The translations under genes were made by a program, and so were the position numbers. Under the pieces are notes generated by a model, which did not search any database, had not been told where the DNA came from, and was given only the letters and a program-made list of their open reading frames with translations. Positions 6,796 through 31,340 of a stretch of 64,000 bases of DNA are shown here, one piece after another. Positions within the stretch are counted from its first letter, which is position 1. Each line of letters starts with the position of its first letter. The stretch is from Octopus sinensis (taxonomy: Eukaryota), in the NCBI RefSeq assembly GCF_006345805.1, contig NC_043017.1:27900001-27964000 (forward strand). Reading direction: 5' to 3'.

Positions 6796-7182
6796 CTAGC
6801 AGTATCGCCCGGCGTTGCTCGGGTTTGTAAGGGAAATAACTATTTTTAGAGATTTAAAGTATAATAGCCATCTCAATATGGCTAACCACAAGGGGGGGTG
6901 TTACTGTAGCTTTTTACGTTCTGAGATTTAATAATGAATTTTTAGAGAGTTACTTCCCTCGTATATGCCAAAAATGCATTTAAAATGGGAAAAATTTATG
7001 GTAAATCCTTTTTTAAATCGTAGACTCATCGTAGACGCGCGCTAATACCCAGAAGGGCTCGATATGAATCACGACTATAAGATACCCGGTTTTGGTTAAA
7101 CTGCACCGCAAAATGTGGGAGTAGTTAGGAATCTAAATCGTAGGAGACAGACAGCACACAACCTTACTTTTATATATAAAGA
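6796..7182 (-). mobile_element. Non-autonomous Helitron (387 bp)
   Basis: Minus strand reads A|TCtttatatataaaag...cccgagcaacgccgggcgatactgCTAG|T: 5' TC, subterminal GC hairpin, 3' CTAG, inserted between A and T; second copy at 26586. Confidence 0.85.
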
Positions 7183-27720: not shown

Positions 27721-29024
27721 TTTCTTATATTTACTTTATGAAGTATTACAATGTCATGTTCTTTTATTATCTCCCTTGAAAACACACCCTTTCCACGTAA
27801 CCTATGGCGGCGTTGCTGTTTAGAGACTGTTGATGATGACGATGGTCGAGATATGTATGGGAGGAGGATAAAATAGTATCGGTGGTTATAATGGCGACAG
27901 GAGAGGTGTGATGCTGAGGTGATGGTGGTAATAGTAGTATTGATAAGTGTTAGTTGTGTGATGGTGGTGATTGCAGTGGTTATATTGGTTGTCATGGTGA
28001 AATTGACTGTCAAGGTAACCGTCATGATAACATTGAACCTTTACATAAATAAATAACGTGAAATACACGAAGGGACGAACAAAAAGACAAACGGGTCATT
28101 CAAAGCCTTTGTTCTTCAGTCAGAAACTGATTCTTCATCGCGGATTTCGGCTGTTTAATTCTGAGATCCGCTCTGAATCAGCCAGCCACAGAAGGAAAGA
28201 ATGCAACGCAACAGAGACGAACATGAAACGAAAAAATCTTTTTTGGAGACAGTAACGGTTAAAAACATGGATGACACAGGCGCCCTACGGCTTTGAGACA
28301 AAAAGAGACAAAAACAATATCAGCAAGTGTGGAAAAATAATTACCTTTTCGGTGATGAGACACATGATGAACAAGCGGCCGATGGCAACGGAATGGCTGA
28401 GGCAGCAAGTCGCAAGAGGGTAAGAGAGAGAAGGGGTAAGAGAGAGAGGGGACCAAGGAGGGTGGAAGGCGAGGACAGAAGCAATGACCAAGAGAGAGAG
28501 GGAGAGAAGGAATCAGAGAAGAAGCAGTGACCAAGAGAGAGTGTGTGTGTGGGCGTGTGTACTCTGAGCCGGAGAATTAGAACTCGTTGGAGAGAACCAG
28601 CCATAGATTAAAGAGTATATGAACCACTGAGCGTGAAGAACCCTAGTTCTCCTTAGAGCTTCCTTATAAGTGTAGGAAAGCGTGTATATAAAGAAACCCT
28701 AGTGCTCCGCTAGTTTCATGTTTTTTGTCTGTTCGCTTGTCACTTTTCAATTTCTTCAGTCGTTGATCCAGTTGAATGGTGCACTTCAGTATGGTCATTA
28801 TTCACACGGAAATTATTTTCGCTATAAATCAATAAAGATTTAATAGCTTTTAAAGTTTGCAAATTTGGGGTAATTTTAGCCAATCGAAAGCCACGAACTG
28901 TTTCCAGAGTTTAAAAAAGCCAAACTGTTACCAAGATGCTTAACCAGGTAGCCAATTTTCGCTTATTAAATGCAGAAAAACACTTAAGGTAATAATACCT
29001 AAATAGGTCTTAAATCATGCACTG

Positions 29025-29275
29025 TTTTTGCCATAATCATTTGAATTCCCGAGTGTAGAAACATTTTATCAGAAGTCGAATATAAAAAGAGCTATGAAGG
29101 TTTTATATGGCGTATGTAAACCAGAATTCCACTAATATTTCATTTGCTTTTTCCATAATCATATGAATTCCCGTGTGTAGAAAAATTTTCTCAAAAGTCA
29201 AAAGAATATAAAAAGAGCTATGAGGGTTTATATGGCGAGCGTAAAGTAGAATCCCCTTGATGTTTCATTTGTTTA
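29025..29275. repeat. Tandem duplication, ~103-bp period
   Basis: ccataatcat(t/a)tgaattcccg(a/t)gtgtagaaa...gaatataaaaagagctatga occurs twice. Confidence 0.85.
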
Positions 29276-29635
29276 GAGTTGAGAACATATAAAGTTACAC
29301 CCCCAAAAGGACATCTTCCAAATCCGGTTTACTCACCGGGTAAAAATTATCAAACTTTAAACCTCTATAACATTTTTTAAAAAAATCAATAATAAATCCC
29401 TGAGCGTGGTATAAACAGTAGCTGCATGACATCGTGACGTATATTTGCTACCTAAATATGGCTAACCCTTAGGGGTTATGCTACTGTAGCTTGTAACCCT
29501 AGGAAAACATCTTCTCCAGCTGGCTATTGACACACTATCTGTGCCCTGTCAGCATTTTCAAAGGGAAAAGTATATATATATATATATTTATATTTTTGTA
29601 TTGAGAATCACTTCCTATCGCCAACCAGTGGTTGT

Positions 29636-29680
29636 CACACGCTGATGACGAGTCAACACCCAGAAACTCGGGTCTGTGTA
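29636..29680 (+). ncRNA. Type I hammerhead ribozyme motif (family B, copy 1)
   Basis: cacacg-CTGATGA-cgagtcaacaccca-GAAA-ctcggg-TC-tgtgt; predicted cleavage after C29674. Confidence 0.75.
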
Positions 29681-29990
29681 TGTAACGTCAGGCTGGAGAT
29701 GGGGAAGGTGAATTCCCTTTGCAAATACTGATAAAGCACAGACAGTGTTTCAATAACCAGCTGGAGGAGATGTCTTTTTAGGGCTACTACCTACAGTAGC
29801 ATCAACCACTAAGGGTTAGCCACATTTAGGTGACAAATATACTTCACGATTCCGTGCAGCTACTGTTCATACCTTGCTCAGAGATTTATTATTGCTTGTT
29901 TCCACTTTTTCGATATCAGTGACTTTTCATCACTGGTAAAAGTATCTATATATTTGCATTGATAAATATTTCCCTGCGCCAATCGGTTGT

Positions 29991-30035
29991 CACACGCTGA
30001 TGACGGATCAATACCCAGAAATTCGGGTCCGTGTG
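29991..30035 (+). ncRNA. Type I hammerhead ribozyme motif (family B, copy 2)
   Basis: cacacg-CTGATGA-cggatcaataccca-GAAA-ttcggg-TC-cgtgtg; perfect 6-bp stem I; predicted cleavage after C30029. Confidence 0.8.
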
Positions 30036-31340
30036 TATCACGTCAGACTAGAGATGGGAACGATGACTTTCCTTTGCAAATACTGATAGGACACACTTAT
30101 TGTGTCAATAGCCAGCTGGAGGAGATGCCTTGTTGGGGCTGCAAGCTACAGTAGCTTTAAGGGTTTACCACATTCAGGTGGCAGATATACTTCACGATTT
30201 AAAAAAAATCCTTTTCTGAAAAAAGTGAAGTAGTCCTTCAGATTCAGCGTGGAAAATTATATCAATAAACCAAATGCTAAAATTTCCACTGGTGCAGCTA
30301 ATCAGAAAAGTCCCCTGTTTGCTAGTCGTCAAAATCTGTCTTGCAAATATTTTTGTAGCTGAATGCGCTGAAAGTATACTTAGTGTCCATTCAGAACAAA
30401 TGCACGCACATGTATGTATGTGTGTGTGTGTGTGTGTACGTGCGTGTGAAGCCTTTAATTTCGTTAAAGGGAAACGTTTTTGAGCATATATATATATATA
30501 TATAAATGGCGGTGCCCCAGCATGGCCACAGCTCATAAGCTGAAACTGGAAAATCAAAATCAAAAATCAAAATTCATATTTATATATATATATATAAGAA
30601 CCCCTATTTTGCGGAAAGAACTCATGAATATGATCCACCCGGTGTCCCTGGATACTAGGGATTGAACTGTAATGATGCGATGAAAACGGACTATGATCCC
30701 AAGAAATATGTGATGTGTGGAAACGCGCGTAGTGATTCATTAAAATATGAATTTCATCTATAGATTATTATTATTATTATTATTATAACTATTATTACTA
30801 ATTCTACTACTACTACTTTATAGGTACGTATGTATGAGTGTATGTGTAAGCATGTATGTATACATGTATGTACGTATGTATAATCCTCTGATTATCTCAA
30901 GAACAAAATATAGAAATGGAAGTTTTACAATATAGACGGCAATATTACTACGACTGCAGGTATTGTTGTCACTGCTACTGATGCTGATGATGATGAGGAG
31001 GAGCATGTTGGTGGCGGTGAAGTTGTTGGTTTATTTTAGAGACCACACTGCTAATATAAGCTAATAATATACGCTCTGATATATTTGAACAATGCAACAA
31101 CACGTGTTGCTTTCGCTGTTCTCAGATTCAAAAACAATATATACCAACGGTATTGTCTTTCATGAAGAAAGAGATTTCAGCGACAAACAAGTCCAGATGG
31201 TAAACAAGCTTGTGAACAAGAGAATAGAGAGAAAACATGTGTGGCTTATCGTTTCGGTTGTATTAAAGCATTTTAGAGATGGAGAAAGGCAGGAAGAAAA
31301 AAGAAGTAATTGTTACGAGCGGGAACAAGTGATTGCAGAG

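What the first reader, a model, noticed from the sequence alone, without database searches (positions are those of the whole stretch)
29569..30198. Tandem 355-nt HHR-to-HHR unit: candidate retrozyme or circular RNA precursor
Two canonical CTGATGA...GAAA...GTC motifs have predicted cleavage sites at C29674 and C30029, 355 nt apart. The copies carry different transitions that together imply an ancestral cacacg-CTGATGA-c gggt caat accc a-GAAA-cccggg-TC-cgtgtg. That ancestor has a fully paired stem II and a self-complementary stem III (acccgggt) suited to dimeric folding. Read-through transcription would release a unit-length RNA in the size range of known metazoan retrozyme circles (inference).
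Basis: partly seen in the sequence, partly recalled or inferred. Interest (0 to 1): 0.75.

Follow-up and report, generated by a model that had tools for sequence, protein, structure and literature searches.

The report
Decayed hammerhead retrozyme insertion, Penelope-type
The two hammerhead-ribozyme motifs 355 bases apart are real, but they sit in one old, decayed insertion of a common non-coding jumping repeat that was likely copied in by Penelope-like retrotransposon enzymes, so this locus is probably inert and of an already described kind.

Summary
CTGATGA...GAAA...GTC motifs lie at 29642-29674 and 29997-30029 (+), 355 nt apart, in two copies of one repeat unit that are 83% identical.

They belong to a single 813-bp insertion (29387-30199). 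It consists of an inverted 5'-truncated copy followed by 1.74 direct units. It sits in an older repeat, flanked by a duplicated T-A7/8-T target, and paralogous empty sites read straight through.

The unit is a dispersed family: at least 3583 first-look candidates in a 2.72-Gb animal genome, and 924 ribozyme motifs within 3 mismatches of the commonest form against 0 in the reversed control. Subfamilies keep helices I and II through compensatory changes.

Insertions carry the marks of Penelope-like elements (PLEs): 5' truncation, partial tandems, an abutting inverted copy, two fixed 3' ends about 45 nt apart, and (TA)n targets. Coding PLEs are abundant in the genome.

So the family is a non-LTR retrozyme-type, likely PLE-dependent, non-autonomous element. 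This copy is old. Each of its ribozymes has an A-C mismatch in the 4-bp helix II, and its unit has lost the family's excess fold stability.

No Rfam hammerhead model matches. No RNA evidence could be obtained. Verdict: new member of a known kind, low-to-moderate interest.

The parts
29378..29386 (.). Left copy of the duplicated target (T, seven A, T) at the end of the host repeat
   Evidence: Window sequence. In paralogous copies of the host repeat, the left and right flanks align to overlapping or adjoining bases.
29387..29567 (-). Inverted, 5'-truncated copy of the unit (unit positions about 39-219 counted from the cleavage site). Its 3' end is the 'long' end and it carries no ribozyme.
   Evidence: Inverted repeats I1 and I2 (98 nt at 86%, 95 nt at 82%). 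blastn places it at unit 39-227 and 36-224. It is 85.1% identical to the direct unit.
29568..29674 (+). 5' partial unit (about unit positions 250-355), with a slippage-expanded TA tract (29571-29602) and ribozyme copy 1
   Evidence: (D4).
29636..29680 (+). Hammerhead-like motif 1. Stem I is 29636-29641 with 29675-29680 (5 pairs, one of them G-U). Core CTGATGA is 29642-29648. Helix II is 29650-29653 with 29658-29661, with an A29651-C29660 mismatch. GAAA is 29663-29666. Stem III/loop is 29666-29673. The predicted cleavage site is after C29674.
   Evidence: The helix II hairpin folds at 0.0 kcal/mol against -4.7 for the commonest family form.
29675..30029 (+). One full 355-nt unit, from cleavage site to cleavage site
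   Evidence: MFE is -86.0 kcal/mol, z -0.44.
29991..30035 (+). Hammerhead-like motif 2. Stem I is 29991-29996 with 30030-30035 (6 pairs). The core is 29997-30003. Helix II is 30005-30008 with 30013-30016, with an A30007-C30014 mismatch. GAAA is 30018-30021. Stem III/loop is 30021-30028. The predicted cleavage site is after C30029.
   Evidence: The helix II hairpin folds at -0.8 kcal/mol. Contigs of four runs carry G at 30007 and C at 30022.
30030..30199 (+). 3' partial unit (unit positions 1-177). It ends at the family's 'short' 3' end, inside the CACGAT(T) word.
   Evidence: The family's 3' ends peak at position 176 (24 of 95 arrays).
30200..30209 (.). Right copy of the duplicated target (T, eight A, T), followed by the rest of the host repeat

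Best explanation
Window 29387-30199 is a single old insertion of a 355-nt, non-coding, hammerhead-bearing tandem-unit repeat of the animal 'non-LTR retrozyme' kind, likely integrated by the reverse transcriptase/endonuclease of a Penelope-like element (PLE), and its two ribozyme copies are predicted to be crippled by decay.

Shown:
- The insertion is an inverted 5'-truncated copy plus 1.74 direct units, between two copies of a T-A7/8-T target, inside an older repeat whose paralogues are uninterrupted at that site.
- The unit is a dispersed family whose hammerhead helices I and II covary across subfamilies.
- Family insertions are 5'-truncated partial tandems. They often have an abutting inverted copy, end at one of two fixed positions (about 176 or about 219-223 nt downstream of the cleavage site), and prefer (TA)n.
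- PLEs with long open frames are abundant in the same genome.

Inferred:
- A source array is transcribed into a multimeric (or, after cleavage and ligation, circular) RNA.
- A PLE enzyme nicks an A/T-rich or (TA)n target.
- It starts cDNA synthesis at either of two internal AU-rich sites of the RNA, reads back through the ribozyme and often beyond one unit, and stops at variable points.
- A second, inverted, truncated copy arises in the same event.

The ribozyme would act as a dimer through its self-complementary stem III in source transcripts. In this copy it is probably dead.
For: Anatomy and single event:
- Direct and inverted repeats and unit mapping.
- In 8 printed paralogues the host repeat runs straight through T(n)A(n), and in the blast table left and right flanks abut or overlap by up to 8 nt.
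- An 'RNA?' contig of runs X1 and X5 joins 29377 to 30238.

Family size:
- 3583 first-look candidates; 90 scored matches at 71-100% identity.
- The commonest 33-mer occurs exactly 20 times.
- 924 motifs lie within 3 mismatches of it, against 0 in the reversed control.
- 578 sites match CTGATGA-N14-GAAACYCGRGTC, against 0 in the control.

Ribozyme under constraint in source copies:
- The test used 95 motifs taken in contig order (77 distinct rows).
- 87.8% of cells pair, against 85.4 +/- 0.4 in shuffles (0 of 500 reach it).
- 11 pairs show changes on both sides, against 7.0 +/- 1.2 (0 of 500).
- 57 cells show such changes, against 14.4 +/- 4.3 (0 of 500).
- The covariation score is 0.248, against at most 0.117 for slid partners.
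- All 9 helix II types seen at least twice keep 4 of 4 pairs, including GGGT/ACCC and AGGT/ACCT.

PLE signature, HHR-anchored arrays:
- 45 of 95 end at unit positions 161-181 (24 at 176), 38 at 207-223, and 12 elsewhere.
- 28 of 95 have an inverted copy within 45 nt of the 5' side. Its 3' end falls at 166-177 in 11 and at 215-223 in 11.

PLE signature, arrays not chosen for a ribozyme:
- 61 of 94 end in the bins 165-179 (30) or 210-224 (31).

Target preference:
- (TA)4 or longer lies within 30 nt of a boundary in 58 of 95 insertions.
- That is 79 of 190 boundary windows, against 12 of 188 control windows.

These marks (partial tandems, 5' truncation, upstream inverted truncated copy, 30-40-bp 'tail', microsatellite bias) are the ones described for PLEs (PMC8557442 passages). 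They are explained there by two adjacent internal RT start sites (PMC11167929 abstract and passages).

PLEs in this genome:
- GIY-YIG gives 5029 first-look candidates and 147 scored matches, with open frames up to 883 aa.
- One element has a 781-aa frame between 1.15-kb direct repeats 99% alike, with its own hammerhead-like core.

Not a fragment of a coding PLE:
- Arrays repeat the 355-nt unit itself: 3 units in L008/L049 and in L012/L022, at least 3.5 in L144.
- No frame above 66 aa lies inside the insertion.

Decay of this copy:
- Its units are 83.1% alike, against 94.4% and 98.3% in two other arrays.
- Helix II hairpin is 0.0 and -0.8 kcal/mol, against -4.7.
- Unit fold z is -0.44, the weakest of 8 family units; 5 of the 8 are below -2.
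Against: - No Rfam hammerhead model matches either the window copies or the commonest family form, even on a 96-nt stretch at E up to 10.
- The usual G10.1-C11.1 pair is replaced by unpaired C/A or U/U in most copies (62 of 77 rows unpaired). Catalytic competence even of intact copies is therefore unproven.
- On the first alignment, partly chosen for an exact core, covariation was weak: pairs with double changes were 6 against 3.7, and 36 of 500 shuffles reached that.
- Much of the covariation signal comes from a few subfamily-level events inherited by many copies.
- No autonomous PLE sharing sequence with the unit was found. Among 20 PLE loci only one significant blastn hit appeared, and it is an independent neighbouring insertion.
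- No listed ribozyme site on contigs C1 or C2 lies near a listed GIY-YIG site. This is my comparison by eye of the tables.
- The window's own target is a T/A homopolymer run, not (TA)n.
- The age argument assumes the units were alike at insertion.
- No RNA data bear on transcription, cleavage or circles.
Confidence: 0.8

Rival explanations
1. The locus is a live retrozyme source. Read-through transcription of 29586-30060 would be cut at both ribozymes and would release a 355-nt RNA that is ligated into a circle.
For: - Both catalytic cores are letter-perfect (CTGATGA, GAAA, A15.1-U16.1, C17) and 355 nt apart.
- Stem I of copy 2 has 6 pairs.
- The stem III words ACTCGGGT and ATTCGGGT can still self-pair with wobbles.
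- The size is in the 170-400 nt range reported for animal retrozyme RNAs (PMC7229834 abstract).
Against: - Each 4-bp helix II has an A-C mismatch. The hairpin is 0.0 and -0.8 kcal/mol, against -4.7.
- Energy of the hammerhead fold is -1.3 and -3.3 kcal/mol, against -8.3 for the commonest form. Alternative folds reach -13 to -17.
- The units are 83% alike, pointing to long neutral decay.
- The unit's fold z is -0.44.
Confidence: 0.06
2. The unit is not a separate non-autonomous element. It is the terminal repeat (pLTR plus the start of the body) of a coding Penelope-like element, seen here as an ordinary heavily 5'-truncated tail-end copy.
For: - PLE insertions are mostly 5'-truncated and carry hammerheads in their terminal repeats (PMC8557442, PMC4209133 passages).
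- Coding PLEs are abundant here.
Against: - Longer arrays run into further copies of the same 355-nt unit, not into a coding body.
- 20 PLE loci, 8 of them taken at 10 kb around long open frames, show no similarity to the unit, apart from one adjacent independent insertion in a TA tract.
- Only 20 of thousands of PLE copies were examined, so a parent element may have been missed.
Confidence: 0.08
3. The unit is a satellite or segmental duplicate spread by DNA-level processes, or a SINE moved by a LINE. The hammerhead-like words would then be a chance or fossil feature.
For: - Some copies are amplified as parts of larger duplicated blocks. These include a 4.1-kb duplicate at 96% and a set of near-identical inverted composites, many on contig C30.
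- The 2026 preprint proposes local amplification by unequal crossover for retrozyme arrays (10.64898/2026.07.22.740005, discussion passages).
Against: - Copies are dispersed over at least 30 large contigs in short arrays, mostly under 2 units.
- 5' ends are variable and 3' ends fixed. The window copy has a TSD.
- There is no tRNA-like part.
- There is no A-rich or LINE-like tail. The ends abut (TA)n instead.
- The motif covaries. The control pattern gives 0 hits against 578-924.
Confidence: 0.03

Closest known systems
Animal non-LTR retrozymes (Cervera & de la Pena 2020, PMC7229834: coral, mussel, axolotl)
   Same: - A type I hammerhead in each unit of a short (150-450 bp), low-GC, non-coding tandem repeat.
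- No LTR/PBS/PPT-type features seen.
- A TSD longer than 4 bp.
- Co-existence with coding PLEs that carry atypical hammerheads.
- Units predicted to be highly self-paired.
- A weak stem III with a self-complementary loop, suited to dimers.
- A mismatch at the base of helix II, as reported for the axolotl HHR_Amex2 (U-U). One subfamily here also has U-U.
   Different: - No RNA, cleavage or circle has been shown here.
- Arrays are short (mostly under 2 units) and dispersed, not long tandems.
- The paper's text does not mention octopus or cephalopods. The organism of this window is not known to me.
- The window copy is decayed.
Penelope-like elements and their insertion signature (PMC8557442; PMC11167929; min-HHRs in PMC4209133)
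   Same: - 5' truncation, partial tandems and an adjoining inverted 5'-truncated copy.
- Two alternative ends about 45 nt apart (the 'tail').
- Insertion into A/T-rich or (TA)n DNA.
- A hammerhead with a short self-complementary stem III and an extra unpaired base after A9.
- Read-through of the ribozyme site in the copied template, as with the anole element, where cleavage was not needed in vitro.
   Different: - There is no reading frame; the repeating unit is only 355 nt.
- Helix II is 4 bp, not the 6-8 bp of the PLE min-HHRs.
- (TA)n bias was reported for Naiads, which lack canonical hammerheads.
- The 'tail' is 43-47 nt here, against 30-40 bp reported.
- No coding partner was identified.
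Non-LTR retrozymes as PLE derivatives in vertebrates (Li, Clavereau & Pollet 2026 preprint, 10.64898/2026.07.22.740005)
   Same: The same conclusion: retrozyme units are non-autonomous relatives of PLEs and co-occur with them.
   Different: - Their evidence is co-distribution and pLTR phylogeny in 35 genomes, mostly vertebrate.
- Word searches of that text found 'tail' 0 times, and 'inverted' and 'microsatellite' only in other senses.
- The evidence here is the insertion anatomy of one family.

Membership tests
Hammerhead ribozyme, type I | Conserved core: C3 U4 G5 A6 N7 G8 A9, G12 A13 A14, the A15.1-U16.1 pair, and H17 at the cleavage site | tested here: met
   Both window copies read CTGATGA ... 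GAAA ... T C in the right order and spacing. 578 such sites occur genome-wide, against 0 for the reversed control.
Hammerhead ribozyme, type I | Three helices around the core, supported by covariation | tested here: met
   Family level: helices I and II are 89-91% paired, with 9 of their 10 pairs showing double changes. Overall, 11 pairs have double changes against 7.0 +/- 1.2 in shuffles (0 of 500). Stem III columns were fixed by the search pattern and are uninformative. In the window copies themselves, helix II is broken by one A-C mismatch each.
Hammerhead ribozyme, type I | G10.1-C11.1 pair closing helix II at the core | tested here: not met
   C and A in both window copies. Unpaired in 62 of 77 distinct family rows. 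U-A, A-U, C-G or G-C in 15 rows.
Hammerhead ribozyme, type I | Match to a curated covariance model (Rfam hammerhead families) | tested here: not met
   No hammerhead family at gathering score in the window. None at E up to 10 in 29000-30800, in four family loci, or in 96 nt around the commonest form.
Hammerhead ribozyme, type I | Site-specific self-cleavage | not testable with these tools
   Needs in vitro transcription of natural arrays.
Animal non-LTR retrozyme | Short (150-450 bp) non-coding tandem unit, each with a type I hammerhead, low GC, no LTR | tested here: met
   355-nt unit. Arrays of up to at least 3.5 units. No frame above 66 aa inside. GC 0.41-0.42.
Animal non-LTR retrozyme | Dispersed copies with target-site duplications longer than 4 bp | tested here: met
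   T-A7/8-T on both sides of the window insert, present once in empty paralogues. Elsewhere TSDs cannot be read because the flanks are (TA)n.
Animal non-LTR retrozyme | Expression as unit-length linear and circular RNA | tested here: inconclusive
   No run is on record as RNA. Contigs of four 'RNA?' runs hold family sequence, but contigs cannot show ends, strand or circles.
Penelope-like element-mediated insertion | 5' truncation, partial tandem, adjoining inverted 5'-truncated copy | tested here: met
   Window. Family: 28 of 95 arrays have an abutting inverted copy, and 5' ends are spread over the unit.
Penelope-like element-mediated insertion | Two alternative ends a few tens of nt apart ('tail', two internal RT start sites) | tested here: met
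   83 of 95 arrays and 61 of 94 end at about 176 or about 219-223. The window has one of each: the inverted arm ends at about 219 and the direct array at 177.
Penelope-like element-mediated insertion | A coding PLE (RT plus GIY-YIG) that shares the element's terminal sequence | tested here: not met
   PLEs are abundant, but none of the 20 loci examined shares sequence with the unit. Only a small sample was examined.

The most novel reading that the evidence does not exclude
The family's insertions are a fossil record of how hammerhead 'retrozymes' move. Copies are laid down by Penelope-type target-primed reverse transcription. It starts at two fixed internal sites 176 and about 220 nt downstream of the ribozyme cut site, mostly in (TA)n microsatellites. 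The templates are read straight through the cut site: 5' ends cluster inside the ribozyme but almost never at the cut. Ribozyme cleavage therefore does not define the ends of what is mobilised, and the template is an uncleaved multimer or a re-ligated circle.
Probability: 0.5. Interest if true: 0.55.

Novelty: new member of a known kind. Interest (0 to 1): 0.3.

Why it matters
The locus itself is an ordinary dead repeat copy.

The family adds an invertebrate-style case to the recent claim that animal retrozymes are non-autonomous passengers of Penelope-like elements. It does so with a different kind of evidence: the anatomy of the insertions (fixed paired 3' ends, inverted partner, microsatellite targets, one TSD around the whole composite).

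It also bears on an open point, namely whether ribozyme cleavage and circles are needed for mobilisation. Here the copied templates were read through the cleavage site.

It also shows that Rfam models miss this whole hammerhead family: 924 motifs in this genome, and 4735 of a second family. This matters for annotation.

Tried and rejected
- **RNA evidence, run search.** The look-up of sequencing runs listed no RNA holder (23 runs, all 'RNA?' guesses kept as contigs; best share of words 0.04).
- **RNA evidence, contigs.** Laying the contigs of X1, X2, X4 and X5 at 80% likeness showed family sequence at high summed depth and no cover of 30296-30600. Contigs cannot show ends, strand, level or circles, so this says nothing for or against expression. 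The second read-laying run was not used, because tandem DNA copies and circles give the same joints in contigs.
- **Candidate full-length element.** A pair of identical ribozyme variants 4138 bp apart on C9 turned out to be a 96% segmental duplicate without long frames.
- **Coding partner.** 12 GIY-YIG loci and 8 ten-kb PLE loci showed no similarity to the unit. The exception is L067, where a related copy has inserted into a TA tract beside a PLE.
- **TSD statistics across the family.** Longest shared words between flanks averaged 7.3 nt against 6.3 in mismatched controls. This is uninformative, because both flanks are often (TA)n.
- **Stem III covariation.** Positions 15.3/16.3 show U-G 45, U-A 8, C-G 7, other 1. 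I rejected this as evidence, since either single transition from U-G gives a standard pair.
- **Pile-up of 5' ends at the cut site.** 2 of about 87 independent arrays start at +1 or +2, where about 0.5 is expected. This is not significant.
- **tRNA-derived SINE.** No tRNA found.
- **Window open frames.** Frames of at least 150 aa had no meaningful Pfam match.
- **Organism.** I could not name it with the tools.
- **Supplements.** The supplements of the papers were not read. The hammerhead figures and tables of PMC7229834 and PMC4209133 may show closer matches to this motif.
Full report
**1. The observation**

The window holds exactly two matches to CTGATGA-N(8-30)-GAAA-N(4-12)-TC. They lie at 29642-29674 and 29997-30029 on the + strand, so the predicted cleavage sites (after C29674 and C30029) are 355 nt apart. 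Shuffles give 0.42 matches per window, and 5 of 100 reach two, so the count alone is weak evidence.

What makes the pair non-random is that both motifs sit at the same place of a repeated unit:
- 29630-29805 and 29985-30160 are 82% alike.
- The overlapping parts of the two units are 83.1% alike: 211 of 254 aligned positions, with 26 transitions, 17 transversions and 17 gap columns.

An inverted partial copy of the same unit lies just upstream. Arms 29380-29477/29804-29901 are 86% complementary, and arms 29473-29567/29713-29807 are 82%.

**2. The motifs in detail (read)**

| Feature | Copy 1 | Copy 2 |
|---|---|---|
| Stem I | cacacg with tgtgta: 5 pairs, one of them G-U | cacacg with cgtgtg: 6 pairs |
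| Helix II | gagt/accc, A-C mismatch at 29651/29660 | ggat/accc, A-C mismatch at 30007/30014 |
| Stem III word | ACTCGGGT | ATTCGGGT |

In both copies the catalytic letters are intact, and both stem III words can self-pair only with G-U wobbles. The bases next to the core, where hammerheads normally have G10.1-C11.1, are C and A.

No Rfam hammerhead model matches:
- not at gathering score in the whole window;
- not at E up to 10 in 29000-30800, where there were 14 hits and none was a hammerhead;
- not in four family loci, with 110 hits and none a hammerhead;
- not on 96 nt around the commonest family form, with 0 hits.

By the curated models this is therefore not a recognised hammerhead. By core and helices it is hammerhead-like.

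**3. A large dispersed family**

The own genome (G000) has 2.72 Gb in 13516 contigs. The window is C21:27900001-27964000.
- The unit has 3583 first-look candidates. The 40 scored gave 90 matches at 71-100% identity on many contigs.
- The commonest ribozyme 33-mer occurs exactly 20 times.
- It occurs 924 times within 3 mismatches (451 + 473), against 0 for the reversed control.
- The looser pattern CTGATGA-N14-GAAACYCGRGTC has 578 sites, against 0 for the control.

The window holds only this one insertion, plus a weak 53-nt hit at 6861-6912.

**4. Is the ribozyme shape conserved?**

The first alignment had 62 copies, 20 of them chosen for an exact core. It gave only weak signals:
- 87.0% of cells paired, against 86.1 +/- 0.3 in shuffles (1 of 500 reach it).
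- Pairs with changes on both sides: 6 against 3.7 (36 of 500).

The second sample is better. It has 95 motifs taken in contig order from the listing of the looser pattern search. The choice was blind to helices I and II, though conditioned on an intact core and stem III. It shows distinct subfamilies:
- C GGGT CAAT ACCC A (the window's own subfamily).
- T AGGT AAAC or CAAT ACCT T, where the first helix II pair is changed from G-C to A-U.
- A AGGT AAAC ACCT T, where the base of the helix is A-U.
- T GGGT TACT ACYC A with CCCGGG.
- A stem I variant, GTCGTGCG with CGTGCG, where an A-U pair becomes G-C.

All 9 helix II types seen at least twice keep 4 of 4 pairs.

The pair counts on this alignment (77 distinct rows) are given:

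| Measure | Observed | Shuffled | Shuffles reaching it |
|---|---|---|---|
| Cells paired | 87.8% | 85.4 +/- 0.4 | 0 of 500 |
| Pairs with double changes | 11 | 7.0 +/- 1.2 | 0 of 500 |
| Cells with double changes | 57 | 14.4 +/- 4.3 | 0 of 500 |

The covariation score is 0.248, against at most 0.117 for slid partners.

Caveats:
- Cell counts are inflated by inheritance within subfamilies.
- Stem III columns were fixed by the search pattern.
- The 15.3/16.3 variation (U-G, U-A, C-G) is uninformative, because any single transition from U-G pairs.
- Within subfamilies, disruptive and wobble changes are about equally common, as expected for neutral decay of dead copies.

My reading is that helices I and II were kept in the propagating source copies, while most genomic copies, including this one, are decaying.

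**5. Anatomy of the insertions**

Unit positions below are counted from the cleavage site.

*3' ends.* These are fixed at two places:
- Of 95 arrays centred on an intact motif, 45 end at positions 161-181 (24 exactly at 176), 38 at 207-223 (13 at 219, 10 at 223), and 12 elsewhere.
- Of 94 arrays not chosen for a ribozyme (bystanders plus a sample anchored on positions 40-176), 30 end in the bin 165-179 and 31 in 210-224.

*5' ends.* These are spread over the unit.

*Inverted partner.* 28 of 95 arrays have an inverted copy within 45 nt of their 5' side. Its own 3' end is at 166-177 in 11 and at 215-223 in 11.

*Array length.* Arrays are short, mostly under 2 units. Some have 3 or at least 3.5 units.

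*Targets.* Insertions favour (TA)n:
- 58 of 95 have (TA)4 or longer within 30 nt of a boundary, and 21 have it on both sides.
- That is 79 of 190 boundary windows, against 12 of 188 control windows.

*Junctions.* The 3' junctions read ...CACGAT|atatat or ...TTATTG|atatat. In L005 and in the window, the short end falls in the loop of a small CACG....CGTG hairpin word.

These are the features described for Penelope-like elements: high 5' truncation, partial tandems, an adjacent inverted 5'-truncated copy, a 30-40-bp 'tail' at one end, and microsatellite bias (PMC8557442, passages read). The tail has been explained by reverse transcription starting at two adjacent internal sites of the RNA (PMC11167929, abstract and passages read).

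**6. The window copy is one such event**

The composite runs as follows:
- Inverted arm 29387-29567, unit positions about 39-219, ending at the long end.
- 5' partial unit with ribozyme 1.
- Full unit 29675-30029.
- 3' partial unit to 30199, unit position 177, the short end.

It lies inside an older repeat with at least 1090 first-look candidates. In paralogues of that repeat the left flank is followed at once by the right flank, with overlaps of up to 8 nt. The site there reads T(n)A(n) once. In the window, T-A7-T precedes and T-A8-T follows the insert. A contig of runs X1 and X5 likewise joins 29377 to 30238, with 31 other letters between.

So the inverted arm and the 1.74 direct units arrived together, with a TSD of about 8-10 bp.

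**7. Coding PLEs in the genome, and whether the unit is only their tail**

The GIY-YIG family gives 5029 first-look candidates and 147 scored matches. Open frames reach 883 aa, and many copies have a frame of 781 aa. One locus has a 781-aa frame between 1.15-kb direct repeats 99% alike, each with its own hammerhead-like core.

None of the 20 PLE loci examined shares sequence with the unit. The exception is a related copy inserted in a TA tract beside one of them. The coding partner is thus not identified.

The unit is not merely the tail of a coding element. Longer arrays repeat the 355-nt unit itself, and it has no frame above 66 aa.

**8. State of this copy**

- Its two direct units are 83.1% alike, against 94.4% and 98.3% in two other arrays.
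- The helix II hairpin folds at 0.0 and -0.8 kcal/mol, against -4.7 for the commonest form.
- The hammerhead fold costs -1.3 and -3.3 kcal/mol, against -8.3, while alternative folds reach -13 to -17.
- A typical unit (L005) folds at -114.6 kcal/mol, z -3.74. The window unit folds at -86.0, z -0.44.
- Among 8 family units, z runs from -5.24 to -0.18. Five are below -2, and the window's is the weakest.

I infer that this copy is dead.

**9. What the copies say about the template**

If self-cleaved linear monomers were copied, insertion 5' ends should pile up at position +1. The listing was collapsed by hand: six near-identical rows were counted as one event, and one chaining artefact and one internal deletion were dropped. 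In the resulting set of about 87 independent arrays:
- 2 start at +1 or +2 (L128, L085), where about 0.5 is expected.
- 18 start 10-45 nt upstream of the cut, inside the ribozyme (offsets 311-345), where about 8.6 are expected.

The templates were therefore mostly read through the cleavage site. That fits uncleaved multimers or re-ligated circles. It also fits the report that cleavage is not needed for insertion by the anole element in vitro (PMC11167929 passage).

This is suggestive, not decisive. The sample is small and the hand-collapsing is mine.

**10. RNA evidence**

No run is on record as RNA. Contigs of four 'RNA?' runs hold family sequence, and at 30007 and 30022 they carry the family's usual G and C rather than this locus's A and T. 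They cannot show ends, strand, level or circles.

**11. Comparison with what is known**

The family matches the published description of animal non-LTR retrozymes in unit size, GC, type I hammerhead-like motif, TSD length, self-paired units and co-existence with PLEs (PMC7229834, abstract and passages). That paper's text does not mention octopus or cephalopods.

The weak stem III with a self-complementary word is also as described there and in PMC4209133. So is the mismatch at the base of helix II, as in the axolotl HHR_Amex2.

A 2026 preprint argues from co-distribution and pLTR phylogeny that such retrozymes derive from PLEs (10.64898/2026.07.22.740005, abstract and passages). In its text 'tail' occurs 0 times, and 'inverted' and 'microsatellite' occur only in other senses. 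The insertion-anatomy argument made here is thus complementary.

Earlier notes of this scan reached PLE-type readings for similar-looking inserts in other genomes. They are leads, not evidence.

A library search for papers holding at least two of 'hammerhead ribozyme', 'Penelope-like' and 'octopus' listed 15 of 46 papers. In that listing, only PMC8557442 held both 'hammerhead ribozyme' and 'octopus'. The organism here is unnamed, so I make no claim about a taxon.

**12. Verdict**

The retrozyme reading is right for the family and probably wrong for the present activity of this locus. This is a new member of a known kind. Its interest lies in the family-wide insertion record, not in this copy.

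Noticed in passing
L012/L022 (G000:C29:12256976-12260653), minus strand; genome-wide: A second hammerhead-like family, unrelated in sequence. Its motif is CTGATGAGGTCACAGGAGTGTGACGAAAGAACTC, with a 6-bp helix II and an extra G after A9, as in PLE min-hammerheads. It has 4735 sites within 3 mismatches (at least 100 exact) against 0 in the control. It is also missed by Rfam. Six sampled loci have no long frames, and their flanks resemble each other, so the true element is larger than the 326-nt spacing seen in L022.
   Followed up: partly
L066 (G000:C1:207473000-207482999): An apparently young coding Penelope-like element. It has frames of 479 and 781 aa (GIY-YIG at the C-terminal end) between 1.15-kb direct repeats 99% alike. 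Each repeat carries a hammerhead-like core (CTGACGA ... GAAATC). Many other copies in the genome have a 781-aa frame.
   Followed up: partly
window 29200-29386 and 30200-30360: The host of the insertion is itself a repeat with at least 1090 first-look candidates in the genome. Its copies share a T(n)A(n) run at the point where the element went in.
   Followed up: partly
G000:C30 about 5.15-9.19 Mb and several small contigs (L184-L186, L192, L196, L200-L202): A near-identical head-to-head composite of two truncated family copies, whose junction lies inside the ribozyme, is present in many copies. This suggests secondary amplification as part of a larger duplicated block.
   Followed up: no
window 29032-29277: Two tandem copies of a 122-nt unit (80% matches) just upstream of the host repeat.
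   Followed up: no
window 29666-29768: A weak sequence-only Rfam hit to the lncRNA region SMAD5-AS1_3 (23.5 bits against a gathering score of 60, E 0.016) inside the repeat unit. Probably chance.
   Followed up: no
L051 (G000:C9:57173500-57182500): A 4.1-kb segmental duplicate (96% over about 2.9 kb) that carries one family insertion in each copy. It explains two identical ribozyme variants 4138 bp apart.
   Followed up: yes
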